Shown: one piece after another, positions 3,001 through 64,000 of the stretch
Position numbering within the stretch: position 1 is the stretch's first letter
How the letters are laid out: each line of letters opens with the position of its first letter
From: Azolla caroliniana
Taxonomy: Eukaryota > Plantae > Polypodiophyta
NCBI GenBank assembly: GCA_043228905.1
Contig: JBHGNT010000015.1
Coordinates: 11,470,001-11,534,000, forward strand
DNA length: 64,000 nt
Direction: 5' to 3'
The notes under the pieces: model-generated
What the model saw: only the letters and a program-made list of their open reading frames with translations
Database searches by the model: none
What the model was told of the DNA's origin: nothing
Made by a program: the position numbers and the translations under genes

Positions 3001-3578
3001 ATCGTATAAAACTGTCTGAGGATTTTGTGTTGTGGAACCCTCCGATGGAAGAATCGCAAGAAGGCAAACTGCAGTTGATCGAAGGTTGTTATTGCTGGTA
3101 AATCCATCTGTGAATGCCAAAACGTCACTCGCCCATCTAATGTTAACCCAAACTCCGTCATTTTCGACTGGTGTGCTACCGCCTCCAAAAGGCTCTGCGC
3201 CATGTAGTTTGCATTCCAGACATTCAGGAACATGCGAATATGTGTTGCGGCGTCGGTTTCATCGTTAAAGCGGGGGTAGGCAAAGGCCATGGTGGGGGCT
3301 ACGGCGGGTCGAGAAAGACCACCGGGTGGCTGTGGTGAGCGTAGTCCCCGCGTCTCGTCGAGGTATTTGGAGAGCGAAGAATTACCTTTGTACTCATGGC
3401 AGGCAGTATTGTGGTTGCTGAGGCGCGGCTTTTGTAGTGCGCGTTCTTCTGCCTGGCATGTGATGGACCTTGTTATTGGCCGGTCTTGTCGTGTTGGTTC
3501 TCTGGGGCGTCTGCGGCTAAACATCCATTCGTCGTTGTTCGTCTATGAGAAGACACAGATCACCAAGCGTGCCAAAAG
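1..3578 (-). mobile_element. Ty3/gypsy retrotransposon internal region (non-chromovirus, Tat/Athila-like), frameshifted; runs off the left edge
   Basis: Gag ORF 3524-2724. Two CCHC knuckles (CPICHSKAHTVDQC ~2650; CFICQQPGHYATQC ~2130). Protease (IDGGSG, ~1640-1400). RT read on the minus strand over ~1000-1 (FLDGFSGYNQ, MMFGLK, CLDDF). Confidence 0.9.
3561..3574 (-). promoter_or_regulatory. Primer-binding site (TGGCACGC...) of the left gypsy element
   Basis: Minus strand reads TGGCACGCTTGGTG 4 nt after the LTR 3' end CA. Primer tRNA not certain. Confidence 0.6.
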
Positions 3579-4379: not shown

Positions 4380-5206
4380 TGTCGTGCCTTTCGGCTCCGG
4401 ATCATTGCGTGAGTCGGGTGGGAACCACTGGGGTTTTGGACTAGGAGGAGGAAGAATTTGAGGCTAATCTAGTTATGAATATGAATAGATTATAAGAAAG
4501 AGATACAGAAACTTGTGAATCCCACAAGTATAATTGTTTTAGTTTATCTTAATCGTAGTAATAAATTGAAATAGTTTAGAATAGATTAGAGTAGATTGAG
4601 AAAAGAGATCAAACCTTGTGAATCCCACAAGTATTACATTAATCAATATTTATGTAAGAATATGAATTTAGATTGAAAGAGATAGATTATATAAAACTTC
4701 GTGAATCCCACGATTCTATTTTATTATTGGTGTTTTAGGAAATATATCCAATTTCCCAAATATTTCACACAACTATTACATTGTGCTCCCCATCCTTATA
4801 TGGTGATGAGAGAGTCTTCACAATCCATGCTTTTTTTTCTAACTATAGACTCCATGCTTTTCCTATAGATAGATTATATGCTTTATCTAAAGTGATCATG
4901 CTTTTTCTATCTTGTGCGTTTTTTATCGACTATAGCGTTCATGCACGCTAGATATGCATGCGTAGCTTTTTCTTTTAACTAAAGTTTATCCTACGTGAAC
5001 TTAACTTTCTATGTGGGACATCTACTTTTAACACTAATGAATTGTTAGTGTAATGGTAAGGTTTCACATTATTAACATGGAGGTGCAAGGTTTGAATCTT
5101 GCCCTATGCATGTATGATTTATTTTGAAATTTTCTTCTATTTCTTCATATTTACTAAAACATTACTTTATAAGTTTTTCATGTAGTGTACGAAATACACT
5201 ACGACA
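4380..5206 (-). mobile_element. Solo LTR (827 bp), same family as the LTRs at 61185 and 63520
   Basis: Reverse complement matches 61185-61900 at both ends (TGTCGTAGTGTATTTCGTACACTAC ... GGAGCCGAAAGGCACGACA). Flanks are GCGT (4376-4379) and GCGC (5207-5210). Confidence 0.9.
5041..5110 (+). ncRNA. tRNA-like Pol III A/B-box module inside the LTR, antisense to the LTR
   Basis: TAGTGTAATGGTAA (A-box-like) ... GCAAG-GTTTGAAT-CTTGC (T-arm/B-box-like), then TTTT. No complete cloverleaf. Confidence 0.55.
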
Positions 5207-32888: not shown

Positions 32889-34853
32889 ATGATAAGAAAT
32901 AAGCTAATATATTGGAAGAAGGAAAGGTTATCCTTAGCTGGACGTGTAGTTGTTGCTAATTCTGTGCTTTTATCATCTGTTTGGTATATAGCCTCTACAT
33001 GGTTGTTTTCTAGGTCCATTATGCTTAGAGTTCAACGTCTAGTACGGAATTTTATTTGGGGAAATGATACGGTACACAATACTATAGCAAAGGTAGCTTG
33101 GTCGGTTCTTATACAACCCAAACATAAAGGAGGTTTAGGTTTGATTGATCCTTTCATGCAAAGTAAAGCATTACTTGTTAAACATGTTGTTAGGTGTTTA
33201 TTGCCTGGACAAGAGTTATGGAAAAAGTTTTGGATGTGTCATTTATATAAATTAAAACCATCGGTTGGTGGTAATTGGCGTGATAGTCTTAGATGGTTCT
33301 TTAATTCAGATTTTCCGCTGTCTAAATCGACAGTTGGGTCCTTTAGTTTTTTTAATGGCATTCTAAGGGCATGGGAAAGTATTCGTCGAGCGCTGGTTTT
33401 TTTGCCACCAAAAACATATCATCAATTAATGCGTCAGCCGTTGTTATGGAATCCTTTGTTTACTGATGAAGCGGCATGTGTCTTAGGTTTACGACCTAGG
33501 TTATCTTGGGCTGCAATGGATAATGGACCAGCTCGTACGGTTGCGGATTGGATTGCTTTCCTGCAGACTTCAGTGCAAGACCAAAAGAGTAGGGTGTCTA
33601 ATTTCAGAGGGGCAAACATTATGATAACTCAAGTGTCAACGGTGTATCAGGTAACATTACCAACTTTGAGTTTTGGTCATTGTTTGAATTGGTATGGTAT
33701 GTTTTCGAGATTAAATATACTAATAGGAGCTCGTCTGTATACTCAAAATGGTAGCCTTTACTTTTATGAAGTTTGCGATAATGGTAGGTTGTTGGTAGTG
33801 GAGGAGGAGTCTTCAATTGTGTCTTCTGCCAGGCAGCTGCCAGTGAGAGTAATAGCTAGGTTGGGAAAAAAGATATTTATAGATCCTAATTCACTAATTG
33901 CTAAGTATTCATCTCATATATGGGTTTTAAATTCTAGACCAATTGTTGATTTGCAGTGGGATCCATTAGATTATGGTTGGAAGTTACCAATGTCTGATAG
34001 TACGCAAGAGAAAGTTCTTCCATTTTTTGCATATTCTGTGTCACTGGGTAGGAAGTTTTTGTTAAATGAGATAGAGTCAATTCCGGCAGGAAAAAAATAT
34101 TGGGAGGAAGGTAATGTCTCATCTACATATATGTTGAAGTTTTGGAAACACCTTTGGTCGCTTAAATGTATGAACAAGGTATTGCACTTTCGATGGTTAA
34201 TGATTCATTATGCATTGCCAGTAGGAGCTTTATTGAGGGGAACAATACCTGATCGATCATGTGGTAGGTGTGGCTGGGCATATGAGACATTACATCATGC
34301 TTTTTGGGAATGTGTTACGGCCAAATGTTTTTGGGCTCGTATTCTTAGGCTTTTAAGTCGTAAGTATAGGGCTACTAAATTCACGTGGGGTACAATCTTT
34401 TGGGGTACGTTGGATCGAGAAACTATTTTTTATCATTATCATAATTCATCATTGACTTTACATGTGAAAAGTTTTCAGGTGTACGTTACGAATAGCTCCT
34501 TGCAGGGAGTCAAGTTCTTTTCTAGGTGTTATGTTTGGAACTTTATTTCCTCGTTGGCCTTATGGATTATTTGGAAAGCAAGGTGTTCTAAAATATATAA
34601 TGATGAAGATACTAATGTTGTGGATCAAGTTAAATCTTTCTGGGAATTATTGGTAAATATAGTTAAAGGTGAATATGATAGCTATAAGGGTTGTGGAAAT
34701 GGGCCTAACCGGAAAAGAAAGCGACTTAGAAGAGTCTGGTCAACCATTCCTATTTTTTTGGATGCAATAGGGGAAGATGTAAAGTGGAATTATGTTCCAC
34801 CTCGATGGTTGTTTCCGCCACCAGCGCCATTTATATTGAACACAGCCGTTTAG
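32889..34853 (+). CDS. LINE ORF2 C-terminal fragment (RT thumb to zf-RVT), 654 aa uninterrupted
   Basis: LSLAGRVVVANSVL, KVAW...PKHKGGLG, CGRCG..ETLHHAFWEC (zf-RVT), LWIIWKAR. Confidence 0.85.
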   Translation: MIRNKLIYWKKERLSLAGRVVVANSVLLSSVWYIASTWLFSRSIMLRVQRLVRNFIWGNDTVHNTIAKVAWSVLIQPKHKGGLGLIDPFMQSKALLVKHVVRCLLPGQELWKKFWMCHLYKLKPSVGGNWRDSLRWFFNSDFPLSKSTVGSFSFFNGILRAWESIRRALVFLPPKTYHQLMRQPLLWNPLFTDEAACVLGLRPRLSWAAMDNGPARTVADWIAFLQTSVQDQKSRVSNFRGANIMITQVSTVYQVTLPTLSFGHCLNWYGMFSRLNILIGARLYTQNGSLYFYEVCDNGRLLVVEEESSIVSSARQLPVRVIARLGKKIFIDPNSLIAKYSSHIWVLNSRPIVDLQWDPLDYGWKLPMSDSTQEKVLPFFAYSVSLGRKFLLNEIESIPAGKKYWEEGNVSSTYMLKFWKHLWSLKCMNKVLHFRWLMIHYALPVGALLRGTIPDRSCGRCGWAYETLHHAFWECVTAKCFWARILRLLSRKYRATKFTWGTIFWGTLDRETIFYHYHNSSLTLHVKSFQVYVTNSSLQGVKFFSRCYVWNFISSLALWIIWKARCSKIYNDEDTNVVDQVKSFWELLVNIVKGEYDSYKGCGNGPNRKRKRLRRVWSTIPIFLDAIGEDVKWNYVPPRWLFPPPAPFILNTAV

Positions 34854-35850
34854 GATGAGTGCGTGAGGAAAGTGTAAACTGTTTTTGTGTTGTAAATACA
34901 GGTTTTCCACGGACATTGGCAACAAGCTAATCGACGAGAGGGCTGATGTGGAAAGAAGGAAGAATGTGTAAGAGAAAAGGATGGGGTATGGTGGCGGGGT
35001 CATAGTCGACAATCGTGAGTGGGTGGGGAATTTTTACACTAATTTTTGTTTTTAATACAGGTTTTTCGTCAACAGTGCAAGATGTTAATCGGCAAGAGGG
35101 CTGACGTGGACTGAATGAAGAATTTCTTGTTTTGTGATAAGGATGAGGGAAGATGGCGGGGGGGTCGAAGCCATCTATCATGAGTGAGGAAACTTTGAGA
35201 TTAACTGTTTTGTTATTGATACAGGTTTTTTCGTGGACATTGGTCATGACGATAATTGGCTAGACGGTTGATGTGGATTGAACGAAGAAATTTTCTGTGT
35301 GAAAGTGATAAGGTTGAGTGAAGATGGTGGGGAGGGTGAAGCCGACTATAACGAGTGGGTGAGAAAATGTTTACACTAATTTTGTGTTGATCAATACAGG
35401 ATATGCGTGGACATTGCCACCGTGTTAATTGGTGAGATGGCTGATGTCGACTGTATGAAGAATTTCTGTGTTAAGGATGAGTGAAGATGGTGGGGAGGGT
35501 GAAGCCGACTATAACGAGTGGGTGAGGAAATGTTTACATTAATTTTGTGTTGATCAATACAGGATATGCGTGGACATTGCCACCGTGGTATTTGGTGAGA
35601 TGGCTGATGTCGACTGAATGAAGAATTATTGTGTTAAGGATGAGTGAAGATGGTGGGGAGGGTCGAAGCCAATGTGCAGGAGTGGGTGAGGACATGTTTT
35701 AACCTAAGTTTTTGTTGATTATACAGGATATGCGTGGACATTGGAACCAGGTTAATCGGTGAGATGGCTGATGTCGACTAAAGGAAGAAATATTTGTGGT
35801 GAGGATGAGTGAAGATGGTGGGGAGGGTCGAAGCCAATCATCACGAGTGG
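34853..35850 (+). repeat. Tandem array (~164-bp unit, ~6 copies) in the LINE 3' UTR
   Basis: Core AGGATGAGTGAAGATGGTGGGGAGGGT recurs at ~34977, 35139, 35310, 35474, 35637 and 35802. Confidence 0.9.
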
Positions 35851-43289: not shown

Positions 43290-45065
43290 GAGGGACACAA
43301 TAGTTCCATCATATGTGGATGCCCACTGACTCAAGAAAGGGAGAGGACGACTATTGTTGGATGAAGGCAAGTCGTTGTCTTTCAACTCCATCGGATTTGC
43401 CATTGATGCCATTGTTTGGCTCTTTAGCATGACTACAACTTCACTTCATATCTCTTGCATTAACATTACTGGATGCGCAATTTGGTTGGAGAAGGCCCAT
43501 CTACATAGTTGTTTCCATAGAATCCAAAGAGTTATTGGGTTGACCAATTCCAACACAACTTGGGATTTGTCATTAATAGGAGTTGAGTGGATATTGTTGA
43601 TGGTGGAGAAAAAAACCTCTTGCGCTTTTATCACCAAAGTCATCCCCTCCTAATGTTTGTACTTGTCAACTAGGGCCTGCCATGATAATCAACATACATT
43701 TCCCCAATTGATCGTGCCTTGCACCTAACATAATTGCAATAGGAGACCAACCCCTCGCCATATTCGATGGGTCTCTGGGCAGTCCCACAGAGCGTGTTGG
43801 ATTGATTCTGTTGCATTTGGGCGTGCTACACAATTAGGAGAGCTAAGGCTCCCACGCTATCACGCTACCACGCTCCAACCGGTAGTGACTTATGTATTAA
43901 TTGCCATTGGAACACGATAATTCGGCTAGCGTGTTGTTGTTTTTAGATTTTCTACCAAACTTTGTGATAATTGTATATGGAACATGATATACGTGTCATA
44001 CCTTTGCAACAACATGCTCTTAGGTGGTTTGAGCGGCTAGATTGTGGTGACCCAATCTAGTCATGAATTGGAAGAACGGGATGACTTTGCTTCCTTGACC
44101 CACATAAAGATCAAGCCATGTCCATTGCAAAGGGTCCTAACTGACCTTATGAAGCCATGTGTTTTCGTGAGTACACATGTGCCATTTCGGGTTGTACTTT
44201 GGCCGGATCGAGATCTACAATCCATATGACCAGTATATGCGAGTACTGGAATTGCCATATTCAATGTTGATGCCTCATTGTCTCGCAATTCACGGCCTTC
44301 AATCCTGTCCGGTATTCTCCCACCTCTTGGGATCAAAGAGCTCTCCTCCTTGTAGCCTATCCACTTCTCCATTGTTGTCCTTTGATTAGCAGCTTCCCTA
44401 AACAATAGAGCGTTTGTAATTTTAGATCTCATAGTCCATCTTCCCCTGATTCCATGGAGTATGTTAACTTGATCTTGTATTAGCAATGCCATAAACCGTC
44501 TCCAACATTCTATATTCTTTCTTGGACCTTCTGCAATGTATCCCCATGACAATCCCTTGCTTGATCCAATGAGTTGACCTGATTCATCTATGATACATGG
44601 GTTCTATAGGATGCGTTGTTGTGATGTTGCGTGTCCAGTGGGAGAAAAAGTGAAAAGTATGATTCCGCGCGCATTACACAAACACTTGAAAAAGTGAAAA
44701 AATAAACCTAGGGCCTAGTGGGATTGAGTGCATATAGAGAGGGGTGGAAGCAAGATTTGAACCTTGTACCTTCAAGGTAGAAGAGAATTGATTTACCACT
44801 AGAACTACTATTACATGCTTTAAATCTTATGTATTTTCTTTTCATATTCAGTAATTCATAGGAAACAAATACATAAAAAACCGTGTGTACAAAACCATGT
44901 TTTAGCCCGTGGTTTTAGCCCCGGTTTTTGCATAGAGAGACCTATAAAAGCCTCTAGTTGGGCTTGTGTAAGGGGATAAGTGATGTAAGGAAGAAACTTT
45001 TAATAAAAGATTTGAGTTATCCTAATGGTGATGTATCTTGTCTCTTAAAACTAAAGTGAAGGTTT

Positions 45066-45106
<41 letters not shown>

Positions 45107-45625
45107 GTAAATACTTTCTCACTTACGCTAGTACAAACTTCGAATACTTCCAGTCTAGGACCCCGACGGCCCCGCTTCTTTTCGCGAACACGCGAGGATT
45201 TCCTCGGCAACGTTGATTGAGCCAGGCAGGTTCAGACATAGGTTGATCACACTTGAGCCTGCCTCTTATGTCACACCACGCCTTCCACATGGATGCACCG
45301 AATTTATCCTCCAATTGGCGTGAGAAACTTGGTTTGAGATCCATGTTTAGAATCCATCCCGTTTGGGGGTCCCAATTGGCCCTTTTTCGTGGCCTAAAGT
45401 AAGCGAAATGTAACCGCATTTTCTAGCAGTCATACCCTAGTTGGAGTCCTCACACCACAACTTTGGGCTTTGGATTGTAAGAGGGGATCAATCAAGCCCA
45501 ACTCTCCTCTCAACTTAGGTGATGTGAGTATAGTCCACGTCACCTTGGCCCGAGCTGCATGATCTTCATTACCAGACCAAATGTAGTTGTGTATTAGTCG
45601 CTGAATTTGATGTATACTTGGAGAT
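43290..45625 (-). mobile_element. Degenerate L1 LINE ORF2 C-terminal fragment
   Basis: AKVTW...GGVGL (~45550), LNQR|IL*NP, zf-RVT remnant (~43900), LWILWKQ (~43520), WNYC (~43300). Collinear with the LINE ORF at 32889. Confidence 0.8.
44617..45209 (+). mobile_element. Solo LTR inserted in the LINE, carrying an antisense tRNA-like module (44741-44812)
   Basis: Termini TGTTGTG...CTCGGCA, flanks GCGT/ACGT. Excision restores the LINE frame. TATAAAA ~44943, AATAAA ~45002, (CT)n. Confidence 0.8.
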
Positions 45626-51437: not shown

Positions 51438-52199
51438 TTTCCTTCTTTACGACATTGAGGAGCAAGATTATATGAATGCATTAAAGCAAATCGAAGAACT
51501 GAAAACTTTGAATAGATCAACCTTCAGGGAGGATGAGGATTATACTACTTTAAATAAGCAACTACAGGATACTCAAGAGTATCTTTTATTCATAGAAAGC
51601 AAATACAAGAAAATGTTACAATTAAGGACATGTATAAAAACAGAAAATTCAACTCTTTTGGAAGCTAAAAAGGAAGCAAAAATTACCATAACTTAACTAA
51701 AGAGCCTTAATGCTTAACGTAATAACGACATGCATAAAAGCAAAAAATTCAACAAGTTTGGAAGCCAAAAGGGAAGTAGAATTTGGTCAAGAAATCCATC
51801 TTGAAGATGTACAGAAAGGGTTCGATGAAGATCTATTTATTCATAGTGCTTTGCTAGATATGTATGTCAAATGTGGATCTATAGTGGAAGTGCAAAATGT
51901 TTTCAACCGAATGTCCAACCGAGATGTGGTATTATGGACAACATTGATTGCATGATATGTTGAGCATGGACCCGTTGAGGATGCACTGAAAAGCTTTGAA
52001 AAGATACAAGATGAGGGGATACTTATTACTACCAAACACTTTCACCTTTTCTTGTGTCTTAAAGGAATGCTCTCATTGGAGGGTTTGTTGAGTATAGAAC
52101 TACTGAGAAAGCATTAGATTCTTTCGATAAAATGCAAGTTGATGGAATCTTTCCGGATGCATATACATTGCCCATGTCCTAAAAGTGTGCGGTTTATTA

Positions 52200-52285
52200 T
52201 GTTGGAGATGAGGTCGTCTATGCGGAAGATCAAGAAGCATTCGATTGGTGTTTGAATACCTGCGTATGACAGTTTCTTGGTCGTT

Positions 52286-52372
<87 letters not shown>

Positions 52373-55300
52373 CACAAAAAACTTTCTTATTCCACAAAGC
52401 AATAATACAACACCCAACCTTACAAAAAGGTTACAAGGTCACTATATATAGTGACCGACTTAGGGCAACTACCCTTTATGATAATTACACAAATGCCCCA
52501 AACTTGGGCTATAGAAAGGGATAGTGTGAATACGTCCATTATACACTTGTATTCGACACTCCCCCGTAATGGGCGTATACATGGGTTATCTAAGATTACA
52601 GGTATAGACTTAGGTTCTCGGACATATCAGCTTTGTTCGGGTCGGCAGGGTCCGAAGGTAGAAGACCGAACTGGTCGGGTCGGAACAGTTGAAGCCGATC
52701 ATTAAGGAACTGATGTCGGTTGTCGGGAACCATCCTGCTCTGTGTCCGGCTCTAACCGGACTGGTTTGTCGTTACGCCCATCTGATGCCGAAGAGACCGA
52801 AAACGGTCTGCCGAAAGACACTTGGTCATTCCATCTGCGACATTGTCGGTTGTGGATATTTTCTCTAGACCGATTTTCCCTGAAATGACGCAGTCCCGAA
52901 CGAAGTGATATCGAACGTCGATATGTTTGGAGGCGTTGTGGTGAACTGGATTTTTCGACAGGGCAACAGCACCTTGACTGTCGCTGTAGACAACTGGAGC
53001 TGAGTCATGGTCGACTTGTCGAAACGTGTGCGCCAGCCGACCGAGCCACAAAGCTTCTTTTGCTGCGTCGGACGCAGCTACATATTCTGCTTCGGTCGTT
53101 GAAGTCGCTGTGCACTCCTGAAGTTTCGACTTCCACGAGATTGCTCCATTGCCGAATTTGAAGCAGTATCCGGTTGTTGATTTCCGACTGTCTATACAGC
53201 CGGCGAAATCCGAGTCGGTGTAACCGACTACGCCTGAGGTTCGGTTCGGACCGAAAAGAATGCCGTGGTCTTTTGTGCCAGCCAGATATCTGAACACATG
53301 CTTGACTGCGTTCCAATGCGATCGGCCAAGATTGTGCATAAATCTGCTAACGACTCCTACGGCGTGAGAAATATCAGGCCGTGTCGCGACCATCAGGTAC
53401 ATAAGGGAGCCGACTGCCGGTGCATACGGTACCGACTTCATATCTTCCCCCTCCGGGCCGGATGTCGGGCAGTCTCGCTGAGAGAGCCGAAGATTCATTG
53501 GGAGTGGGGTTGAAGCAGATTTGGCTGATTGCATGTTGAAGCGTTCCAAGACACGTCGGATATAGTCGGTCTGAGACAAAAAAAGATGTCGTTTATCGCG
53601 ATGCCGACTAATCTTCATGCCGAGTATGTGTCGTGCCGGACCGAGATCCTTCATGGCAAACTTCAACCGCAGTTGCCGAATGAGATCGGCAAGTTCGCCC
53701 GCGTGGCGTCCAGAAATTAGCATGTCGTCCACGTAAATGATGAGGAAGATGGGTGATCCATCTTGAGCTGTGTTGGTGAAGAGACAATGGTCCTCATCGC
53801 TTTTTGAGAAGCCGATCGATTGGATGAAGTCGTCGAACTTCTTGTACCATTGTCGTGGTGCCTGTTTGAGGCCGTATAGACTCTTCCTGAGTCGGCAGAC
53901 TAGATGTTCTTGGCCAGTTGCCACGAAGCCTTTTCGCTGCTCCATATAAATTTCCTCCTCGAGATCACCATGGAGGAAGGCTGTTTTGACATCTAGCTGA
54001 ATCAGCTCCAAGTTGTCGGCTGCCACGACGCCGAGCAGAAAACGAAGGGTTGTCATTTTCACCACTGGTGAAAAAATCTCGTCGAAGTCGACGCCATATT
54101 CTTGTCGGAAGCCCTTCGCAACTAATCTGGCCTTGTACTTTGGGGTGGTCGAATCAGACGTCTCTTTTAGTCGATAAACCCACTTGCAAGGAAGAGCACG
54201 TCGGTTCCTAGGTAATTCGACCAGATCCCAAGTCTTGTTTGCCCGAATGGAGTGCATTTCCGACTCCATCGCCAGATGCCAGGTGGCGGAATCGACAGAT
54301 GTCGATGCTTCTTCGTAAGACGTCGGTTCGCCGGCGTCGGTGAAGAAAATTCCAGGAGAGTACCTCTCCGGAGGTTGCGACAGTCTCTCGGATCGTCGAG
54401 GTATGATTGGACTGGTCGCATCGGGTATCGAGGTCGGATGGTCCGAAAGCGGATTGTTCTGCTGTGCCGAGTCGGAGTTGTCCGAGTCGGTAGTGTAAGG
54501 TTCAGCTACCCGTGAAGCTAACCGTGTGTTGAGAGCGGGGCCTTCTTGAAGGGTCGGCACATCGGAAAACGTTACCCTTCGGACTTCGATCGGTTTTTCG
54601 ACTGATGGATTCATAGCCGACTCGTTGAACACAACGTCCGAACTTCGAACGATTTGCCTGCGTTCGGGGTCCCAGAGTCGGTATCCCATTTCGCCGTCGG
54701 ATCCATATCCAAGGAAAATGCATTTCCTGGACCGAGGTGCAAGTTTTCGGCGATCATCTTTCGGAATAAGGGCGTACGCCTCGCATCCGAAGATCCTCAG
54801 CTTGTCGTAATTCGGCTTACTGCTGATCCATAGTTCCTGAGGAATTTGAAGTCCTAGAGGTCTACTTGGCGACATATTGATTATGTGTACTGTCGTGAGT
54901 AGAGCCTCTGCCCAGAAGCCATCCGACAGTCCGGAGTGTTGGAGCATGGAAACTATCCTTTCTTGGATTGTCCGATTCATTCGTTCTGCAATCCCGTTTT
55001 GCTCCGGACTGTGTGGTGCCGTAAATTCACGTCGGATGCCGCGTTGTCGGCAGAATTTGACGAATTCTTCGGATTTGAACTCTCCCCCATTGTCTGTCCG
55101 AAAGCATTTCAGGTTTCGGTCGGTTTGATTTTCTACCATAGCGAGCCAATCTGAGAATATCGAGAAGACCCGATCTTTGGTGCGAATTGGATAAGCCCAC
55201 ACCTTTCGAGTCGAATCGTCAATAAAAGTGACGAAGTAAGAGGCACCGCCGAGAGACTGATGCGGCATTGGGCCACAGACGTCCGAATGGACCAAATCAA

Positions 55301-57428
55301 GAGGTCTCGTTTCTCTTGGTGCTGATGTCGGGTGTGATGCGGCTGCTTGTTTGCCATACTGGCAATGCTCGCAGAATTGATGGTCGGAGAAGGATAGTTT
55401 AGGGATGTATCCGGCTCTAGATAGATGCGTAATGCCGGCCTTGCTGAGGTGTCCTAATCTTCTGTGCCATAGTGATGACACAGGAATATCCACCAAAAAC
55501 AGGTTACCCTCTCTGAGCGTAACATGTAACGGATATAGTGAGTGTATCTTGGGTCCTCTAGCAAGCAGGAGGTTCCCCCTGTGGAGTGTCCACCCTCCCG
55601 AAGAAAAACCGGCACGAATGCCGTCTTCATCTAGTTGTCCGACTGAGATCAATGGCCTTGAGAGCTCGGGTACATGTCGGACATTGTGGAGTACAAGTGT
55701 AGAGCCACCTGCAAGGTTGAGCTCTACTGTGCCGATTCCGATGATGTCACAGTGTTGTGAGTTGCCGACTCGAACTGAGTCGGAGTGACGGATCGTATAT
55801 TGCCGAAATTGGGATCGATGAGGAGTCACGTGAAATGACGCGCCCGAATCTAAGAGCCATGTGCTCGACTCTTCAGTCGTGAGTAGGACTTCTGATCCGA
55901 CTGGATTTTCGATTGATAGTATATTCGGGTCGTCTGGTAGCACATCAGCTGAGAAGCTGACGTAATTGATCTCCTCATGCCGGCCACTCTTCTTGTTGTT
56001 CTTGTTCTTGAGTGCGCGGCAGTCGGCTTTGATGTGTCCGGGTTTCTTGCAATAGTTGCAGATTCGGTTATCCCGTGACTGGCTCCGTCTTCGCTGATTG
56101 TTCGGCGGCCGTGAGGAATCTCTTCCTCGTATGTTCGATCGGTCTGTCGAACCTTGTACTACATAAGCGTCGTCTGTTGAGTCTTTGGCGAAAGACTTTC
56201 TCCGAGCTGCTTCGGTCAGGATTGCGCTCGTGACTTCGGAGTATTTAACAGCCGTGGTTGACGCGTTGCACACGGTTGTGACGAAAGTTTCCCATGATGA
56301 GGGAAGGCTACTCATGAGTATCATTGCTCTGAGTTCATCCTCGATTGCCGTCCCCTGTGACGAGATTTGGGAGCTTATGCTTTCGTACTCATTGAGGTGT
56401 GCTTGAACCGAGTCGGATTCTTTCATCCGCAAGTTGTAGAGGCGCCGGATCAGAAACATCTTTGTTGCGGCGACCTTCTTTTCGTAAGTGTCCGACAGTG
56501 TTTTCCACAGTTCGAATGCTGTCGTACACGATTGCACCGTAAAGTATACCGATTCCGATAGGTGCATCCGAATCGTGGCGCGGACGATTCTGTCCAGCTT
56601 CTGCCACTCAATTGGTTTGTATCCTTCTGGAGGTTCTTCATTTTCGATGGGATCGATTTGCCCCTTGACTATGAGATAGTCCTGCATTTGTTCCTTCCAG
56701 AAGTTGAAGTTCGATCCATCGAACTTTCGGAGACTCATTTCTGACGAGCCGGATGTTGATGCCATCAAATTCGGTTTCGGTTGACGAAGCTCGGTTCGGA
56801 GTTGACTACGAGCCTTGTTGGAGTGCAGCCGGTTGGCTCACCCGATATCGCTCTAGTCGGATTTGAACCCGAGTCGGTTCGGCTTCGGAACTTGCTCGAA
56901 TTGACTCCGGTAGCTTGAGGGACAGAACCGACTGGTCTTCCCGAATGTTGCCGAGTCGGAGTGAGCCCGGTTCGCTTCGGATATATATGCCGAATACCGA
57001 TTATTAAAACCGATTATCTGGACCGATTCTGCTTCGGTTGACTGCAGCAATGAGAGAGACGGATCCGACTGATCCTCCCGAATGTCGATCAGCCAGATGA
57101 AGCACGAATTTGGGTTGTTGTCAAAGTTGCACAAGGGGATTTCACCTCGAGCGGTTACGATCACAAGGGACAGAGTACAACCTACTGGCTTACTCCAAAG
57201 TGAAGATGATCTAACGCGATGAGATGCGAGCCTCGTTTTTCTTCTTCTTCTCTCTTCTTCGAATGACGCAGGAAACCGAATGCTGAGACGACGGCCGACA
57301 GCGGATTGAAGGACCGACTACTGTGCAGGCTCTGATACCAGATGTTGGAGACGAGGTCGTCTATGCGGAAGATCAAGAAGCATTCGATTGGTGTTTGAAT
57401 ACCTGCGTATGACAGTTTCTAGGTCGTT

Positions 57429-57463
<35 letters not shown>

Positions 57464-57649
57464 CACAAAAAACTTTCTTATTCCACAAAGCAATAATACA
57501 ACACCCAACCTTACAAAAAGGTTACAAGGTCACTATATATAGTGACCGACTTAGGGCAACTACCCTTTATGATAATTACACAAATGCCCCAAACTTGGGC
57601 TATAGAAAGGGATAGTGTGAATACGTCCATTATACACTTGTATTCGACA
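52200..57649 (-). mobile_element. Full-length young Ty1/copia retrotransposon
   Basis: 5' LTR 57649-57343, 3' LTR 52558-52200. PBS TGGTATCAGAGC (57340-57329). PPT 52565-52559. TSD TATTA (52195-52199 and 57650-57654). Confidence 0.97.
52752..56768 (-). CDS. Copia Gag-Pol polyprotein, 1338 aa, uninterrupted
   Basis: CNYCKKPGHIKADC, WLLDSGAS, HHCC and DDE integrase, YVDD RT, YTDSD...KHID RNase H. Confidence 0.97.
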   Translation of the reverse strand: MMASTSGSSEMSLRKFDGSNFNFWKEQMQDYLIVKGQIDPIENEEPPEGYKPIEWQKLDRIVRATIRMHLSESVYFTVQSCTTAFELWKTLSDTYEKKVAATKMFLIRRLYNLRMKESDSVQAHLNEYESISSQISSQGTAIEDELRAMILMSSLPSSWETFVTTVCNASTTAVKYSEVTSAILTEAARRKSFAKDSTDDAYVVQGSTDRSNIRGRDSSRPPNNQRRRSQSRDNRICNYCKKPGHIKADCRALKNKNNKKSGRHEEINYVSFSADVLPDDPNILSIENPVGSEVLLTTEESSTWLLDSGASFHVTPHRSQFRQYTIRHSDSVRVGNSQHCDIIGIGTVELNLAGGSTLVLHNVRHVPELSRPLISVGQLDEDGIRAGFSSGGWTLHRGNLLLARGPKIHSLYPLHVTLREGNLFLVDIPVSSLWHRRLGHLSKAGITHLSRAGYIPKLSFSDHQFCEHCQYGKQAAASHPTSAPRETRPLDLVHSDVCGPMPHQSLGGASYFVTFIDDSTRKVWAYPIRTKDRVFSIFSDWLAMVENQTDRNLKCFRTDNGGEFKSEEFVKFCRQRGIRREFTAPHSPEQNGIAERMNRTIQERIVSMLQHSGLSDGFWAEALLTTVHIINMSPSRPLGLQIPQELWISSKPNYDKLRIFGCEAYALIPKDDRRKLAPRSRKCIFLGYGSDGEMGYRLWDPERRQIVRSSDVVFNESAMNPSVEKPIEVRRVTFSDVPTLQEGPALNTRLASRVAEPYTTDSDNSDSAQQNNPLSDHPTSIPDATSPIIPRRSERLSQPPERYSPGIFFTDAGEPTSYEEASTSVDSATWHLAMESEMHSIRANKTWDLVELPRNRRALPCKWVYRLKETSDSTTPKYKARLVAKGFRQEYGVDFDEIFSPVVKMTTLRFLLGVVAADNLELIQLDVKTAFLHGDLEEEIYMEQRKGFVATGQEHLVCRLRKSLYGLKQAPRQWYKKFDDFIQSIGFSKSDEDHCLFTNTAQDGSPIFLIIYVDDMLISGRHAGELADLIRQLRLKFAMKDLGPARHILGMKISRHRDKRHLFLSQTDYIRRVLERFNMQSAKSASTPLPMNLRLSQRDCPTSGPEGEDMKSVPYAPAVGSLMYLMVATRPDISHAVGVVSRFMHNLGRSHWNAVKHVFRYLAGTKDHGILFGPNRTSGVVGYTDSDFAGCIDSRKSTTGYCFKFGNGAISWKSKLQECTATSTTEAEYVAASDAAKEALWLGRLAHTFRQVDHDSAPVVYSDSQGAVALSKNPVHHNASKHIDVRYHFVRDCVISGKIGLEKISTTDNVADGMTKCLSADRFRSLRHQMGVTTNQSG

Positions 57650-58351
57650 TATTAGGGCCTACAGATAAAGGACAATCCATGTATATGGAGGCTGTATGGA
57701 AAGGGTTCCAACAAGTGCACATTTATTCATACCCATCACATTCAAAAGCAGACAACCAAAACCATGATATTCCAAAAAATGAGTAGTTGTTAACAAAAAT
57801 AAATATGCATTGCAAATGATAAAAAATGGGACATCATTAAAAAAGGACCAAGCACTTTTCCCATGACACGAAATTGAGATCTTTAATGTTTCTGGAAACC
57901 AATGTCATTTATAGTAACATGGAAAGTAAATTAGAATGATCAATTTCTGAAATGAATTCAAGTGGGATACAACCACTAAAATCAATAAGCAAAGGATTAG
58001 CTAATGCTACAAATTGTGAAAGATTTTGAACACATTGTCTACATGTATACATACATGTTTGAGTTTCAACACATGGTTCCTATAATATTTGATCTCAACA
58101 CTTGCATAGAGGAGAGTTTTATTGCATGACGTCAATTACAATTGTCTACCAATTTGTTACTTGTATAGATGCATTATTGTGGAATAGATAGATTGTTGGA
58201 CACAAGCATACGTAAACTAGATCAACTAAAAATTAAATCTCCCTTGTCATTTGGTATTATCATACAACTTGACATTGGAATACAACAAAATGGGAGGTAT
58301 ACTTAATCATAAAAAATAAAAGAAAGAAACATATTCACTAACCTGATTTTA

Positions 58352-58592
58352 TTTTCTTGTTGTTGTTGTTGTTGTTGTTCTTCTTCTTCTTCTTCTTCTT
58401 CTTGTTCTTCTTGTTCTTCTTGTTCTTCTTGTGCTTCTTCTTCTTCTTCTTCTTCTTCTTCTTCTAGTGCTTCTTCTTCTTCTTCTTCTTCTTCTTCTTC
58501 TGCTTTTTCTGCTTCTTCTTCTTCTTCTTCTAGTGCTTCTTCTTCTTCTGCTTTTTCTGTTTCTTCTTCTTCTTCTTCTTCTTCTTCTTCTT
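58352..58592. repeat. (TTC)n/(TTG)n compound microsatellite in the hAT end upstream of the transposase
   Basis: Directly visible. Explains the spurious poly-R and poly-L ORFs. Confidence 0.95.
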
Positions 58593-61321
58593 CTAAGTCT
58601 ATTCTGTCCGTCTTCCTTCCTTCCTTCTATTTCACTAAAGTTGTTCTTTTCTTTTGCTTTCTTTAGGGTTTTACTCACATTTTCTATAAATACGTACTAT
58701 ACGTATTTTTTTAAAGGTACGTTAAATACCGTATTAGACGAATGTATATGACGTTTGAATGAACAACTTTGACGTATGGTACGTACTATACAAATAAGAA
58801 GGTATTATACGTATTGATACATTAAATACGCGTATGTAAACAACGCTGGTTTCACCGCTCAACAAACGACCGAACTTCGGCAATCTCAGAGTGCTCTTGA
58901 GGCACGTGTCATTAGTCTACAACGTGAGACTAATAGACCTGATGAGCGACAAGGTGAACCATCATTTGTCGTTAAGCCATTTACGGGAGACAAAAAGGAA
59001 AGAATCGAAGAAGCAATCTGCACATGGCTGGGACGATGGGAGTCTCATTTTGAGCTCTATCCCACGCTAGATAGTACAAAGATTGCATATGTCGGCCGAG
59101 AACTCGGGGGTAAGGCCGTTGCCTAGTGGCGTGGGCTCCGTACTATGGGGAAATTGCCCGATACTTGGACAGATTTTGTCACGGTTTTTAAGGGCCAATT
59201 TCTGCAACCTCCCTCTCAAACCGAGGCAGCACAAGCTTTAATGAAACTCTCTAGCAGGAAATTTTCCTCGCTAGAAGACTATGTTCACCATGCTAGAACC
59301 CAAATCCAAAAATCGGGTCTAGAAGGGGACAATTGGTTGATAACTTGTTTTGTCAATGGCATCCCCAATTCGGACTATCACTGGATAGTGCACGATAAGG
59401 ATCCAAAATCCTTCGAAGAGGCCGTTGAAATAGTTCTTCGCTATCAACGCACTTCGAAGAAGGACCACAACAAACCCAACGAAGCGCCCGGGACTAAGCA
59501 GTCGCAATTTGTTGGGAAATGCAAGACATCCAACGAATTCTTGGATCGCAATTGTAAGCGACAACATCCTTTTTGCGTATTTTGCAAAAAGAAGGGTCAT
59601 ACAAAAGATCAATGTCGAAAGCTCCAACGGAAAGAGCACGACAACAAAGCTAAAGCTGCAGACCATAAAGGTCAGATTCCTAATGTCCTTTAGGTCTATA
59701 CACATCATTTAAGTAATTGTCAATGTTCTTTCCCTCACTATGTATTGGGTCCCAATGATTTACTACGTGCAAACGAGTATATCAATGGATCTCCCGTATA
59801 ATTTTTATTTGATTCGGGAAGCTCACACAATTTTGTCAATGATCGTTTGGTTCAGATATGGGGAATCCAACCCACCGTAAGTGATCACACCTACACGGTG
59901 CACTTGGCTGATGGAAGAGTACAATACATCAACGAGGCGATTCATTCATTAGGAATTTCTATTGATACTTATATAAAGGAAGTAGACTTCCATGTAATGA
60001 ATCTTTGTACCACCGATGTAATACTGGGTTATCCCTAGTTTTATAATAAAAACTCTTCTTTATCTATTGATTGGGTTCATCATTCAATTACATTTGTACT
60101 GAACGATTGTACTCATTTTGTTCAATGTGTAAAAAAACAATCCCTCTCGATTGTTTCCTCGTGTCCATCAATATCCGAGTTGTCTTGTTCTACTCTATTT
60201 TATTGTGTACTTGATCCGGACATTCATGTTTACAATATCGATAATATCTCGGTTCAATTAACATATTTTGAACAACAACAACTTGATGAAATCTTAAATG
60301 ATTTTCATGATGTTTTTCCGAGTGAACTACCAGATGGCTTACCTCCTAAACGTAATATAGACCATCGTATAGATATTGTACCTGGTGTTGCACCAATAAG
60401 TATACCTCCTTATCGCTTAAGTCGATCCGAAGAGGATGAGGTATCTAAGCAACTCAAGGACTATTTACGAATGGGTTACATACGTTATAGTAAATCTCCA
60501 TGGGGTGCACTAGTTCTTTTGGTAACAAAGAAAGAGGGCACATGGCGTATGTGTATTAATTACCGACACTTGAATAAAGTGACGATCAAGAATTCGTACC
60601 CATTGCCCCGGGCTGACGATCTAATTGACCGTCTCCAGGGAGCTCAGTATTTTACGAAACTTGATCTCCGTACTGGCTACCATCAAATATGAATAAGTGA
60701 GGACGATGTTCCTAAAACGGCATTTCGTACGCACTATGGCCATTACGAGTTTTTGGTTATGCCTTTTGGTTTGACCAATGCTTTGGCTACTTTTCAACAA
60801 GAAATGAATGACATTTTCCGAGAACAACTTGGAAAATTTGTCGTTATTTTCTTGGATGATATTTTAGTTTATAGTTGTACATTAAAAGAACATGCTAGAC
60901 ATGTCCGCTTTGTTTTAGAAACATTGCGTGACAAACAATTTTATGTGAAGATCTCAAAATGTGAGTTCTTCAAGAAATCAATTACTTATCTAGGACATCT
61001 CATAACCGAACGAGGAGTTGAAATTGATCCTTCTCGCATTGAGAAAATCAAGCTTTGGCCCACTCTTCGGAATATTCGAGAAGTTTGATCATTCCTTGGT
61101 TTTGTTTGGTTTTTGCGAAAGTCTCTTCGTAATTACTCCCAATTGACGACGCCATTTACTGATATTTTAAAAGGTCAAACGCGTTGTCGTAGTGTATTTC
61201 GTACACTACGTGAAAAAGTAAAAATAATATAACCGATTTAATTACATATAAATAAATAAAATAAGAATATTAAGATATTTATCACCAATAAATAAAATAA
61301 GAATATCAAGATATTTATCAC

Positions 61322-61395
61322 GTGCATAGGGCAAGATTCGAACCCTATACCTCCACGTAGCCAAACCTCAACTTTACCATTATGCTACCTTATCT
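61322..61395 (-). ncRNA. tRNA-like Pol III A/B-box module in the 5' LTR (second copy ~63657-63730)
   Basis: Minus strand: TAGCATAATGGTAA ... AGGTATAGGGTTCGAATCTTGC, then TTTT about 25 nt downstream. Confidence 0.6.
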
Positions 61396-61904
61396 TTAGT
61401 GTTCCATAAATAGATTTAATAACTATAACTGCTTTATTTGCGACTACCTTTATTAAAAGGTAAATCGTGCATTTTTAGAGTGCGTGAATATTTTTATAGA
61501 AAAACGCAAGCGACTAAAAAGTGACTCATGCACATCTAGCGTGCATGAGCACTATATTTAGCAAATAAAAGCAAGGATTAAAAAAACATGTAGCTATGCT
61601 TAGTCTCTCCCATCACTACATAAGGATAGGGAGCACAATGTAATAGGTGTGTGAAAAATATTTGGGAAATTGGATATATTTCCTAAAACACCAACAATCA
61701 ATAAAATATACTCGTGGGATTCACGAAGTTTAAGATAATCTATCTCTTTCAATCTAAATTCATATTCTTACATAAATATTGATTAATGTAATACTTGTGG
61801 GATTCACAAGATTAGCCTCAAATTCTTCCTCCTCCTAGTCCAAAACCCCGGTGGTTCCCACCCGACTCACGCAAACGATCCGGAGCCGAAAGGCACGACA
61901 CAGT

Positions 61905-61922
61905 TGGTGAACCCGACGTGAA
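61905..61922 (+). promoter_or_regulatory. PBS complementary to the tRNA-Trp 3' end
   Basis: TGGTGAACCCGACGTGAA, 4 nt after the LTR, is complementary to ...TTCACGTCGGGTTCACCA (plant tRNA-Trp, from memory). Confidence 0.8.
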
Positions 61923-61938: not shown

Positions 61939-63567
61939 ATGGAGAATCAACAAGAGGCGATGAACATGATGATGATGATGTTCGAGAGAATGCTACAAGA
62001 ACAACGCGAGATGTCGGAGATCACAACAGTAGTACAACGGCTCGTGCAACAGAACGGGCAATTCGATGGAAAGGACGTGTCACGCTATCTACGTGACTAC
62101 AAAATGGAGATGTTGCGATATGGTATCTCAGAAAGATTGCAAGTGTTATCTTTCAACCGGGTGGCTACGGATGAGCTTCAAGAGAGAATCCACGAGATAC
62201 GACAACAAAGCCCGATGTGGGAGTCCTTTGAAGAAGCTATACGAGACACATATGACTATCTAAGACCGAAGCGGATGAGGACATGGTCCACGAACGACGG
62301 TCAACAGTGGGTGAAAAGCGGCCACCGACTACCACCGAAGGAGAGCTTGATGCGGAAGGGTTCGGAGATGCATGAAAAGTCGCAAGTCGACATTGAAGGG
62401 GAGCTTAAAACCGAACCAAAGTCGAGGCCAACAAAGGACGAGGAGGAGGAAGATCGAGGACGAAAGGGTATCCCCACACCGGTTCCAGAGACTTCGGCGG
62501 TTGTGCCCGTGCACCAACGTGAGACCGGAGAGACGGAATGTGTCGGCGGAAAAGTGGAGGACCGGAAGGGCAACGAGGAAGACAAAGTAAATGAGCACGA
62601 ACGAAGGGATTCCTTCACCATTGTTTCGGAGACTTCGGTACTCGAGCCCGGGTGTCGACATAACACCGAAGATAAGGAAAGTGGCGGCAACGAAACGAAG
62701 GTCGAAGCCGATGCATACGAAGGAGAGATAGCCAAGGAGAACATGGCTATGGGTGAAACAACGGAAGATGATAATACCGAGGATTCCTACCCACTAATTC
62801 TAGAGACTTCGGCGGTTGTGTCCGAGAACCAACGTGAGACCGGAGAGACGGGAGGTGGCAACAAGGAAGGTAAAGTCGGAAGCCGGTTCGGATGGAAGAT
62901 GATCCGTCTGAAATTCCGATGTAAACAAAAGCATGACAACGCGAAGGTCGGGTCTACGATGGGAGAAGCATGTAATACGGAGCACGCACTACGGCACCAA
63001 AAGAAGCACGTGCTACGGCGTAAAGAGAAGCACACGCTACGGCGCAAAAAGAAGCACGCGCTACGGTGCAAAAATAAGCATGCACTACGGGGTAATACGA
63101 CGCATGCACTACGATGGAATACGAAGCATGCGCTACGGCCTAATACGACGCATGCGCAACATCGAGAAATAAAGCATGCATTAAAGCCGCACAAGGACCT
63201 AACAGCGAGCGCGTATTCGGAGGTCGACATCGACGCGTGGGTAGAACCTACGGAAGACAAGCGCGGAGTGGAGAGAGACAACACACCAAGATGCTCAAGA
63301 GTACCACAAGGGACCATGACAACCACTCATGGCAATGCAAAGAATGAACAAAGAATATGGTGGATCGGATGGCGACAATGGTTCGGGTGGAAAGAATGGG
63401 TCTACTCAAAATGGAGAGACAAAGTTGACATAGCGGGACAAACGGAGGATGAAGGGGAGACAACGAGCATCGGCAACTTCGGCACATACCGGAGGATGTG
63501 CGGGTTCGGAGGGGGCGAGTGTCGTAGTGTATTTCGTACACTACGTGAAAAAGTAAAAATAATATAA
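61939..63567 (+). CDS. Gag N-terminal fragment fused to acidic and basic repeat regions
   Basis: First ATG at 61939. FDGKDVSRYLRDY...WESFEEAI is gag-like. Then three ETS(A/V) repeats and about eight 8-aa KHALR repeats. Stop lies inside the 3' LTR. Confidence 0.6.
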   Translation: MENQQEAMNMMMMMFERMLQEQREMSEITTVVQRLVQQNGQFDGKDVSRYLRDYKMEMLRYGISERLQVLSFNRVATDELQERIHEIRQQSPMWESFEEAIRDTYDYLRPKRMRTWSTNDGQQWVKSGHRLPPKESLMRKGSEMHEKSQVDIEGELKTEPKSRPTKDEEEEDRGRKGIPTPVPETSAVVPVHQRETGETECVGGKVEDRKGNEEDKVNEHERRDSFTIVSETSVLEPGCRHNTEDKESGGNETKVEADAYEGEIAKENMAMGETTEDDNTEDSYPLILETSAVVSENQRETGETGGGNKEGKVGSRFGWKMIRLKFRCKQKHDNAKVGSTMGEACNTEHALRHQKKHVLRRKEKHTLRRKKKHALRCKNKHALRGNTTHALRWNTKHALRPNTTHAQHREIKHALKPHKDLTASAYSEVDIDAWVEPTEDKRGVERDNTPRCSRVPQGTMTTTHGNAKNEQRIWWIGWRQWFGWKEWVYSKWRDKVDIAGQTEDEGETTSIGNFGTYRRMCGFGGGECRSVFRTLREKVKII

Positions 63568-64000
63568 CCGATTTAATTACATATAAATAAATAAAATAAG
63601 AATATTAAGATATTTATCACCAATAAATAAAATAAGAATATCAAGATATTTATCACGTGCATAGGGCAAGATTCAAACCCTATACCTCCACGTAGCCAAA
63701 CCTCAACTTTACCATTATGCTACCTTATCTTTAGTGTTCTATAAATAGATTTAATAACTATAACTGCTTTATTTGCGCCTACCTTTATTAAAAGGTAAAT
63801 CGTGCATTTTTAGAGTGCGTGAATATTTTTATAGAAAAACGCAAGCGACTAAAAAGTGACTCATGCACATCTAGCGTGCATGAGCACTATATTTAGCAAA
63901 TAAAAGCAAGGATTAAAAAAACATGTAGCTATGCTTAGTCTCTCCCATCACTACATAAGGATGGGGAGCACAATGTAATAGGTGTGTGAAAAATATTTGG

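What the first reader, a model, noticed from the sequence alone, without database searches (positions are those of the whole stretch)
61322..61395. LTR group carrying a conserved antisense tRNA-like (Pol III) module in U3
Seen: four LTRs from three separate insertions (4380-5206, 44617-45209, 61185-61900, 63520+) carry the same ~70-nt module antisense to the LTR, about 95-210 nt from its 5' end. The A-box-like parts are TAGCATAATGGTAA, TAGTGTAATGGTAA and TAGTTCTAGTGGTAA. The T-arm/B-box parts are AGGTATAGGGTTCGAATCTTGC, AGGTGCAAGGTTTGAATCTTGC and AGGTACAAGGTTCAAATCTTGC. Each is followed by a T4-T6 run. The sequence between the boxes is not conserved, and the 44617 LTR is otherwise hard to align. 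Known: Cassandra TRIMs carry 5S-derived Pol III promoters in their LTRs, and tRNA B-boxes bind TFIIIC and can act as chromatin boundaries. Inference: this may be a tRNA-based counterpart, making a ~100-nt antisense Pol III RNA or acting as a TFIIIC insulator against silencing.
Basis: partly seen in the sequence, partly recalled or inferred. Interest (0 to 1): 0.85.

Follow-up and report, generated by a model that had tools for sequence, protein, structure and literature searches.

The report
Antisense tRNA promoter in moss LTRs
Several families of likely moss retrotransposons carry, on the reverse strand of their long end-repeats, a decayed tRNA-gene copy whose promoter boxes and spacing stay fixed while the flanking DNA has diverged beyond recognition, so it likely serves as a docking site for the tRNA-gene transcription factor near the element's own promoter, though no binding or transcript has been shown.

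Summary
The module is real. All four LTRs carry it antisense in U3 with exact tRNA spacing; these are the window's only A+B-box hits (chance 0.02). The elements fit Phygy, a moss Ty3/gypsy lineage (tRNA-Trp PBS, NCGN 4-bp sites). A scan on the PBS alone found the module in 5 of 47 Phygy-like LTRs, always antisense. With the window's copies it spans three U3 families and two gag clades. Between families, boxes are 73-82% identical, the interior 46% (shuffled 26%) and flanks at chance. It is no tRNA (no cloverleaf covariation) and mismatches the primer tRNA. Weak points: the T-run is not conserved (+12 to +211), only 2 of 9 copies have both boxes perfect, C56T holds 29-42% of laid depth, 23 of 27 complete LTRs lack it, and no RNA data were available. 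Best reading (0.45): a captured tRNA/SINE head kept as a TFIIIC site acting on the LTR's Pol II promoter. Helenus is the known tRNA counterpart of Cassandra, but the consensus LTRs I saw are sense-oriented, in TRIMs under 1.3 kb. The scan had not noted this module before.

The parts
61331..61387 (-). tRNA-derived module A (tRNA positions 8-65): A box 61387-61377, variable-loop part 61352-61349, B box 61343-61335; both boxes canonical
61185..61900 (+). 5' LTR (716 nt, TG...CA, 6-bp terminal inverted repeat), preceded by an NCGN tetramer at 61181-61184, inserted in the RT region of an older gypsy element
61905..61922 (+). 18-nt primer-binding site, 4 nt after the LTR; tRNA-Trp type
   Evidence: near-identical Trp PBS in supplement of PMC10886601; Phygy uses tRNA-Trp in 81%
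61939..63567 (+). ORF with Phygy gag N-terminus followed by low-complexity repeats, no pol; reads through the PPT into the 3' LTR (non-autonomous element)
63508..63519 (+). polypurine tract
63520..64000 (+). 3' LTR (cut by window end), 4 differences from the 5' LTR in 481 nt
63666..63722 (-). module B; B box has C56T, one of the 4 differences from the 5' LTR
4380..5206 (-). solo LTR C, same U5 and 5' end as A; 4-bp NCGN flanks differing at one base; no PBS
5046..5102 (+). module C (antisense to its LTR); canonical A box, B box with C56T, interior replaced relative to A at unchanged length
44617..45209 (+). solo LTR D of another U3 family (relatives L002, L077); NCGN flanks differing at one base; TATA-like site 142 nt downstream of the A box
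44750..44807 (-). module D; canonical B box, A box canonical only with a 1-nt insertion

Best explanation
The module is a decayed tRNA-gene head lying antisense in U3 of a subset of Phygy-type Ty3/gypsy LTRs, and it is likely kept because its A/B boxes bind TFIIIC (with or without Pol III firing), which would hold chromatin open or limit silencing next to the element's Pol II promoter some 140-190 nt away. Shown: position, orientation, tRNA register, loss of the cloverleaf, conservation of boxes against flanks, patchy spread over gag clades. Inferred: capture of a tRNA or tRNA-derived SINE (anticodon ending in U in most copies, so not the Trp primer) into an ancestral U3; spread between lineages by U3 exchange during reverse transcription, or repeated loss; TFIIIC binding; the benefit to the LTR promoter. 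The orientation means it cannot make the genomic RNA as in Cassandra; any Pol III product would be a short antisense by-product ending at whichever T run comes first.
For: Between three U3 families (21 pairs): D-loop part 0.82, variable loop 0.78, T-arm/B box 0.73, against shuffled 0.33/0.36/0.26, while 100 nt upstream (0.52 vs 0.51) and downstream flank (0.49 vs 0.48) are at chance. Universal tRNA positions kept at 0.93 against 0.71 for other positions; G18, G19, G45, G46, G53 kept in 7-8 of 8, although G/C decays readily in methylated repeats (recalled). 9 of 9 copies antisense, in U3, with a 21-nt spacer. Stems are not kept: 52.7% of cloverleaf cells paired against 50.9% shuffled, 1 compensated pair, as expected for a DNA-level promoter. 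In contigs of four runs labelled as four organisms, no variant reached 3% at G52-T55, A50 or 41-47 and no indel was listed in the reported stretch 61340-61369. The B-box bins are a depth peak in all four. A TATAAAA lies 140-190 nt on the sense side in 6 of 9 LTRs. Same pattern of box conservation in Helenus; Pol III units in retroviral U3 are known.
Against: No RNA, ChIP or methylation data. Only 2 of 9 copies (A, L040) match both canonical boxes; 3 of 9 carry C56T, and C56T is 29%, 30%, 42%, 30% of depth in the four runs; the matching G57A site fell outside the reported stretch, so deamination symmetry could not be tested. The 5' half of the A box is at chance between families (0.33 vs 0.29). 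23 of 27 complete Phygy-like LTRs lack the module, among them close gag relatives, so it is dispensable. The five extra copies were picked by a box-based score, which inflates box identity. Many invariant columns are A/T and would persist without selection. L012 and L077 are clearly decayed.
Confidence: 0.45

Rival explanations
1. Neutral relic: a tRNA-SINE inserted into a Phygy U3 (once, or separately in several families) and has hitch-hiked by U3 recombination; it looks conserved because it is younger than the flanks' divergence and because copies were found through their boxes.
For: Patchy spread, 4 of 27 complete LTRs; U3/U5 mosaics; interior still above chance; frequent C56T; decayed copies L012, L077.
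Against: Boxes far above the interior (0.73-0.82 vs 0.46); G18/G19/G45/G46/G53 nearly invariant; no indel in 9 of 9 spacers while neighbouring U3 is rich in indels; no free copy outside LTRs in 280 kb searched (a small sample); separate insertions would all have to be antisense and upstream of the TATA.
Confidence: 0.27
2. The antisense Pol III RNA is the point: a short hairpin RNA complementary to U3 that would seed or soak up siRNAs, or tune the element's own expression, like the Pol III miRNA units in foamy-virus U3.
For: A hairpin enclosing the B box folds below shuffles on the antisense strand in 4 of 9 copies (z -2.2 to -3.8); U33 kept in 8 of 8; precedent in PMC3993851.
Against: No fixed terminator, predicted lengths 76-275 nt; the hairpin is as good or better on the sense strand in C, D, L040, L053 and absent in L012; RNAalifold consensus only -1.44 kcal/mol with an unfavourable covariation term.
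Confidence: 0.15
3. Second primer-binding site: in the genomic RNA the 3' U3 copy is complementary to a tRNA and would bridge the two ends through the primer, as in Ty3 and Drosophila gypsy.
For: Antisense orientation is that of a PBS; similarity fades at about tRNA position 61, where the 18-nt PBS (59-76) begins; precedent in PMC5371799 and PMC1635307.
Against: Against primer bases read or inferred from the window's own PBS, conserved module columns cannot pair: position 36 0 of 9, 49 0 of 9, 50 0 of 9, 52 1 of 9, 59 0 of 9. The 5' PBS is already a full 18 nt. The 5' two thirds of the real tRNA-Trp could not be fetched, so D-arm pairing is untested.
Confidence: 0.08
4. Functional tRNA or tRNA mimic carried by the element.
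For: Exact register, U33 and mostly A37 kept.
Against: ARAGORN finds none, Rfam tRNA not hit at E<=10 for A or L040, stems broken without covariation, anticodon differs between copies (GGC, ATT, TCT, CCT, CTT).
Confidence: 0.03

Closest known systems
Helenus / TRIMp3 (Kojima 2024, PMC10886601)
   Same: tRNA-derived sequence inside an LTR, conserved around boxes A and B, not a functional tRNA; proposed to arise by SINE insertion into an LTR; one plant family (Selaginella).
   Different: Helenus elements are 311-1263 bp, non-coding, LTRs up to 323 bp; the three LTR consensus sequences I saw in the supplement (SMo, two ToGe) have the tRNA part in sense, fitting a promoter for the element's RNA. 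Here it is antisense, in 590-1160 nt LTRs with TATA boxes, in a ~3-kb gag-coding element and in L053 with a long gag ORF. Kojima noted that 'not a few' Repbase LTRs have tRNA-like parts but analysed only TRIMs under 1 kb.
Cassandra TRIMs (as described in PMC10886601)
   Same: Pol III internal promoter inside a plant LTR.
   Different: 5S-derived (A/IE/C boxes), drives the genomic transcript, 565-860 bp, conserved terminators; none of this holds here.
Phygy clade, non-chromovirus Ty3/gypsy of moss (Neumann et al. 2019, PMC6317226)
   Same: 4-bp NCGN target sites, tRNA-Trp PBS, gag related to gag-protease proteins.
   Different: No LTR module mentioned in the passages and supplement row read; element here is non-autonomous; RT-based placement not possible.
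Pol III miRNA units in foamy-virus U3 (PMC3993851)
   Same: A/B-box Pol III units within U3 of a Pol II LTR.
   Different: Those have defined terminators and shown miRNA products; here tRNA-derived, no fixed terminator, no RNA shown.
Bipartite PBS of Ty3 and Drosophila gypsy (PMC5371799, PMC1635307); tRNA-like sequence in HIV-1 U3-R (recalled, not retrieved)
   Same: tRNA-complementary sequence near the 3' end of the genomic RNA of a Ty3/gypsy element.
   Different: There it matches the primer tRNA; here conserved columns mismatch the primer.

Membership tests
Helenus/TRIMp3 | tRNA-derived sequence with A and B boxes in the LTR | tested here: met
Helenus/TRIMp3 | short (about 0.3-1.3 kb) non-coding TRIM | tested here: not met
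   element at least 2.8 kb with a gag-derived ORF; LTRs 590-1160 nt
Helenus/TRIMp3 | promoter oriented to transcribe the element (sense) | tested here: not met
   9 of 9 antisense; Helenus LTRs seen are sense; the paper's text does not state orientation
Helenus/TRIMp3 | Pol III transcription | not testable with these tools
   only assembled contigs available
Cassandra | 5S rRNA-derived sequence in LTR | tested here: not met
   no 5S hit in Rfam scan of the LTR; boxes are tRNA type
Phygy | 4-bp TSD of NCGN type | tested here: met
   both solo LTRs have NCGN-type 4-mers on each side with one mismatch; element A has one on its left; definition
Phygy | tRNA-Trp PBS | tested here: met
   18-nt PBS 61905-61922, near-identical to a Trp PBS
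Phygy | placement in RT/RH/INT phylogeny | not testable with these tools
   element lacks pol; no reference Phygy RT at hand; gag relatives carry protease
tRNA gene | cloverleaf with paired stems | tested here: not met
type 2 Pol III promoter | canonical A box and B box at workable spacing | tested here: inconclusive
   both perfect in 2 of 9; A box in 5 of 9 (7 with a 1-nt insertion), B box in 3 of 9 (consensus recalled)
type 2 Pol III transcription unit | T4+ terminator at a conserved place | tested here: not met
   +12 to +211; chance 56-75%
bipartite PBS (Ty3 type) | 3' site complementary to the primer tRNA | tested here: not met
   for positions 34-36, 49-53, 59-65; D arm not tested
tRNA-derived SINE insertion | own TSD and free copies outside LTRs | tested here: inconclusive
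   no free copy in 280 kb; no with/without pair of otherwise alignable U3s; whole genome not held

The most novel reading that the evidence does not exclude
Protein-coding moss LTR retrotransposons have domesticated an antisense tRNA promoter as a built-in TFIIIC barrier that shields their Pol II promoter from host silencing, and trade it between distant lineages as a portable U3 module.
Probability: 0.3. Interest if true: 0.75.

Novelty: new variant of a known kind. Interest (0 to 1): 0.5.

Why it matters
Known small-RNA-derived LTRs (Cassandra, Helenus, Ajax) are thought to use Pol III to make their own RNA, which limits them to tiny elements. An antisense tRNA promoter kept in long Pol II LTRs cannot do that, so its retention points to another use: chromatin insulation or promoter opening by TFIIIC, or an antisense RNA. 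If so, it is a sequence-encoded counter-silencing device of a transposon, and a natural test of whether TFIIIC barriers, known from yeast and animals (recalled), work in plants. High-copy solo LTRs would also scatter many potential TFIIIC sites through the genome. If neutral, it is only a marker of U3 recombination among Phygy lineages.

Tried and rejected
Whole genome not held, so no genome-wide copy set. No RNA holder listed; read laying had contigs only. Viral contigs gave nothing for the module pattern or gag. A plant tRNA-Trp gene could not be fetched: 4 viral and 8 genome hits were chance matches, and paper search returned only the 3' fragment. Relaxed ARAGORN was noise. One search used a mis-registered structure and is discarded; one search is the correct one. 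In one search, L048 (13.3 vs 12.7) and L078 (12.3 vs 11.8) just passed their shuffle maximum with other spacing and no boxes and were not found by the profile: rejected. The sense hit in L035 is a tRNA-iMet-like repeat about 1 kb upstream; the weak hit in L009 lies in copia gag coding sequence. Leave-one-family-out was uneven: without family 1, C scored 3e-5, A 0.2, and B and L012 were missed; without family 2, L077 was missed. The C56T/G57A symmetry test failed because position 57 fell outside the stretch reported. A self-complementary loop for RNA dimerisation was dropped: the palindrome is intact in only 2 of 9. The HIV-1 and Ty3 primary papers were not held. No module or PBS motif in the supplements of PMC7466625.

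Full report
Setting. The window is plant DNA (NPH3 gene, many copia and gypsy remnants). No whole genome is held. Positions 61185-61900 and 63520-64000+ are the two LTRs (4 differences in 481 nt) of one element of at least 2.8 kb with an 18-nt PBS, a PPT and one ORF whose first ~115 residues match gag proteins, some with a protease; it has no pol. 4380-5206 (minus) and 44617-45209 are solo LTRs. All sit at NCGN 4-mers. A 4-bp NCGN site and a tRNA-Trp PBS are the marks of Phygy, the moss non-chromovirus Ty3/gypsy clade (PMC6317226, passages and one supplement row). The moss host is inferred from this.

Observation. The four modules are present as described and are the window's only A+B-box pairs (0.02 expected). 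They follow tRNA numbering exactly: D-loop part, 21 nt, variable-loop part, 4 nt, B box. They are not tRNA genes: ARAGORN and Rfam find none and the cloverleaf shows no covariation (52.7% of cells paired, 50.9% in shuffles). The T-runs are not informative: the first T4 lies +12 to +211 over 9 copies, and 56-75% of antisense U3 positions have one within 55 nt.

Relatives found without using the module. 85 of 120 looked Phygy-like (47 by gag, the rest by LTR end); 47 of the 85 had at least 350 nt upstream. A score trained on the window's three distinct modules found 5 of 47 with the exact spacing and above all 30 shuffles (L053, L040, L002, L077, L012; 32-14 bits against at most 11), all antisense; two marginal passes and one sense hit outside an LTR were rejected. 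Of 27 LTRs whose 5' end I could place (three of them weak calls), 4 have the module; L040 is cut. The nine copies fall into three U3 families (A, B, C, L012; D, L002, L077; L040, L053); between L002 and L040/L053 BLAST aligns only the 68-69 nt module. In a gag tree of 36 rows, A and L012 lie in one clade with module-less L003, and L053 in a distant clade (99/100) with module-less L020, L051, L072; L002, L040, L077 had no usable gag. U3 and U5 are mosaics, so exchange of U3 segments or repeated loss is needed.

Conservation. Over 21 between-family pairs, identity is 0.82 (positions 14-22), 0.46 (23-43), 0.78 (44-48), 0.73 (49-61) against shuffled 0.33, 0.26, 0.36, 0.26; flanks are 0.52 and 0.49 against 0.51 and 0.48; positions 1-13 are 0.33 against 0.29. 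The twelve universal tRNA positions (list recalled) are kept at 0.93, others at 0.71. Box-based selection of the five extra copies inflates these figures, but the interior, which was not scored, is also above chance. Contigs of four runs labelled as four organisms were laid on LTR A (4342, 3716, 3133, 4116 contigs): the B-box bins are a depth peak in all, as are the LTR start, a palindrome near 61540 and U5. On the module alone (variants reported only for 61340-61369) nothing reached 3% at positions 41-47, 50 and 52-55 and no indel was listed, but C56T held 29-42% of depth. Depth there is not a copy number, and contigs that diverge in the interior drop out. C56T is also one of the four differences between the young element's own LTRs, as CpG decay after insertion would give. 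Only A and L040 have both boxes canonical.

Mechanism. Antisense orientation excludes the Cassandra/Helenus role of making the genomic RNA. Kept boxes with lost stems and no fixed terminator point to a DNA-level site rather than a defined RNA. In 6 of 9 LTRs a TATAAAA lies 140-190 nt away on the sense side, so TFIIIC and any TFIIIB would sit back to back with the Pol II promoter. TFIIIC reads A and B boxes in plants, and upstream CAA/AT and poly(T) signals are weaker outside angiosperms (PMC13437025, passages); yeast TFIIIC also makes a base contact upstream of the B box (PMC11724288, passages). Barrier activity of tRNA genes is recalled, not read. I give this cis-acting TFIIIC model 0.45, a neutral hitch-hiking relic 0.27, a functional antisense RNA 0.15 (hairpin round the B box in some copies, not strand-specific), a second primer site 0.08. 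The last has good precedent (PMC5371799 passages; PMC1635307 abstract and two sections) but conserved columns mismatch the primer bases read from the window's PBS.

Known and new. Helenus (PMC10886601; parts 1-4 of 6, keyword and supplement passages) is the tRNA counterpart of Cassandra, so tRNA heads in LTRs are known, and that paper notes unanalysed longer LTRs with tRNA-like parts. This case fails Helenus membership on size, coding and orientation. Pol III units in U3 are known from foamy viruses (PMC3993851, passages). My searches (passages of PMC13570524 and PMC7466625) found no report of an antisense tRNA head in moss gypsy LTRs; subscription journals and Repbase were not searchable. The scan's own notes hold Helenus-type cases elsewhere and, in this genome, an unrelated tRNA-end-for-PPT lineage, but not this module; the element here has an ordinary PPT.

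Verdict. New variant of a known kind; interest 0.5.

Noticed in passing
L057 1150-1224; L035 about 2244-3042: Two related Phygy-like elements lie near tRNA sequences: a tRNA-Arg(CCG) gene about 200 nt outside the 5' LTR of L057, and a ~370-nt tandem repeat carrying tRNA-iMet-like copies upstream of L035. A crude box pattern over 15 flanks found one other weak hit and missed the L057 gene, so targeting is untested.
   Followed up: partly
L005, L017, L018, L020, L026, L050, L053, L056, L062, L072, L077: LTRs with a PPT before them and a PBS after them, i.e. tandem elements sharing an LTR.
   Followed up: no
L016, L069, L072, L080 (PBS and next bases): The cloned Physcomitrella small RNA 1-39 in PMC1838911 (recalled as miR894) is the reverse complement of a Phygy-type PBS plus its downstream bases, so it may be retroelement- or tRNA-derived rather than a miRNA.
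   Followed up: partly
window 61939-63567: The non-autonomous element's ORF stays open for ~540 codons after gag truncation; relatives P0002-P0004 and P0011 keep a Trp-rich C-terminal segment and P0002-P0004 also read through the PPT into the 3' LTR.
   Followed up: no
window 61901-61904 and L001-L120: Phygy-like elements have a long, variable gap between LTR end and PBS (about 1-8 nt).
   Followed up: no
window 61528-61554: A palindromic stretch in U3 is a depth peak in all four laid runs, a second conserved U3 element.
   Followed up: no
window 52199-57649: Intact-looking copia element on the minus strand with a 1361-aa polyprotein and near-identical LTRs differing in an AG repeat.
   Followed up: no
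window 34844-35850 and 58309-58644: Tandem repeats of ~163 nt and of 9-12 nt.
   Followed up: no
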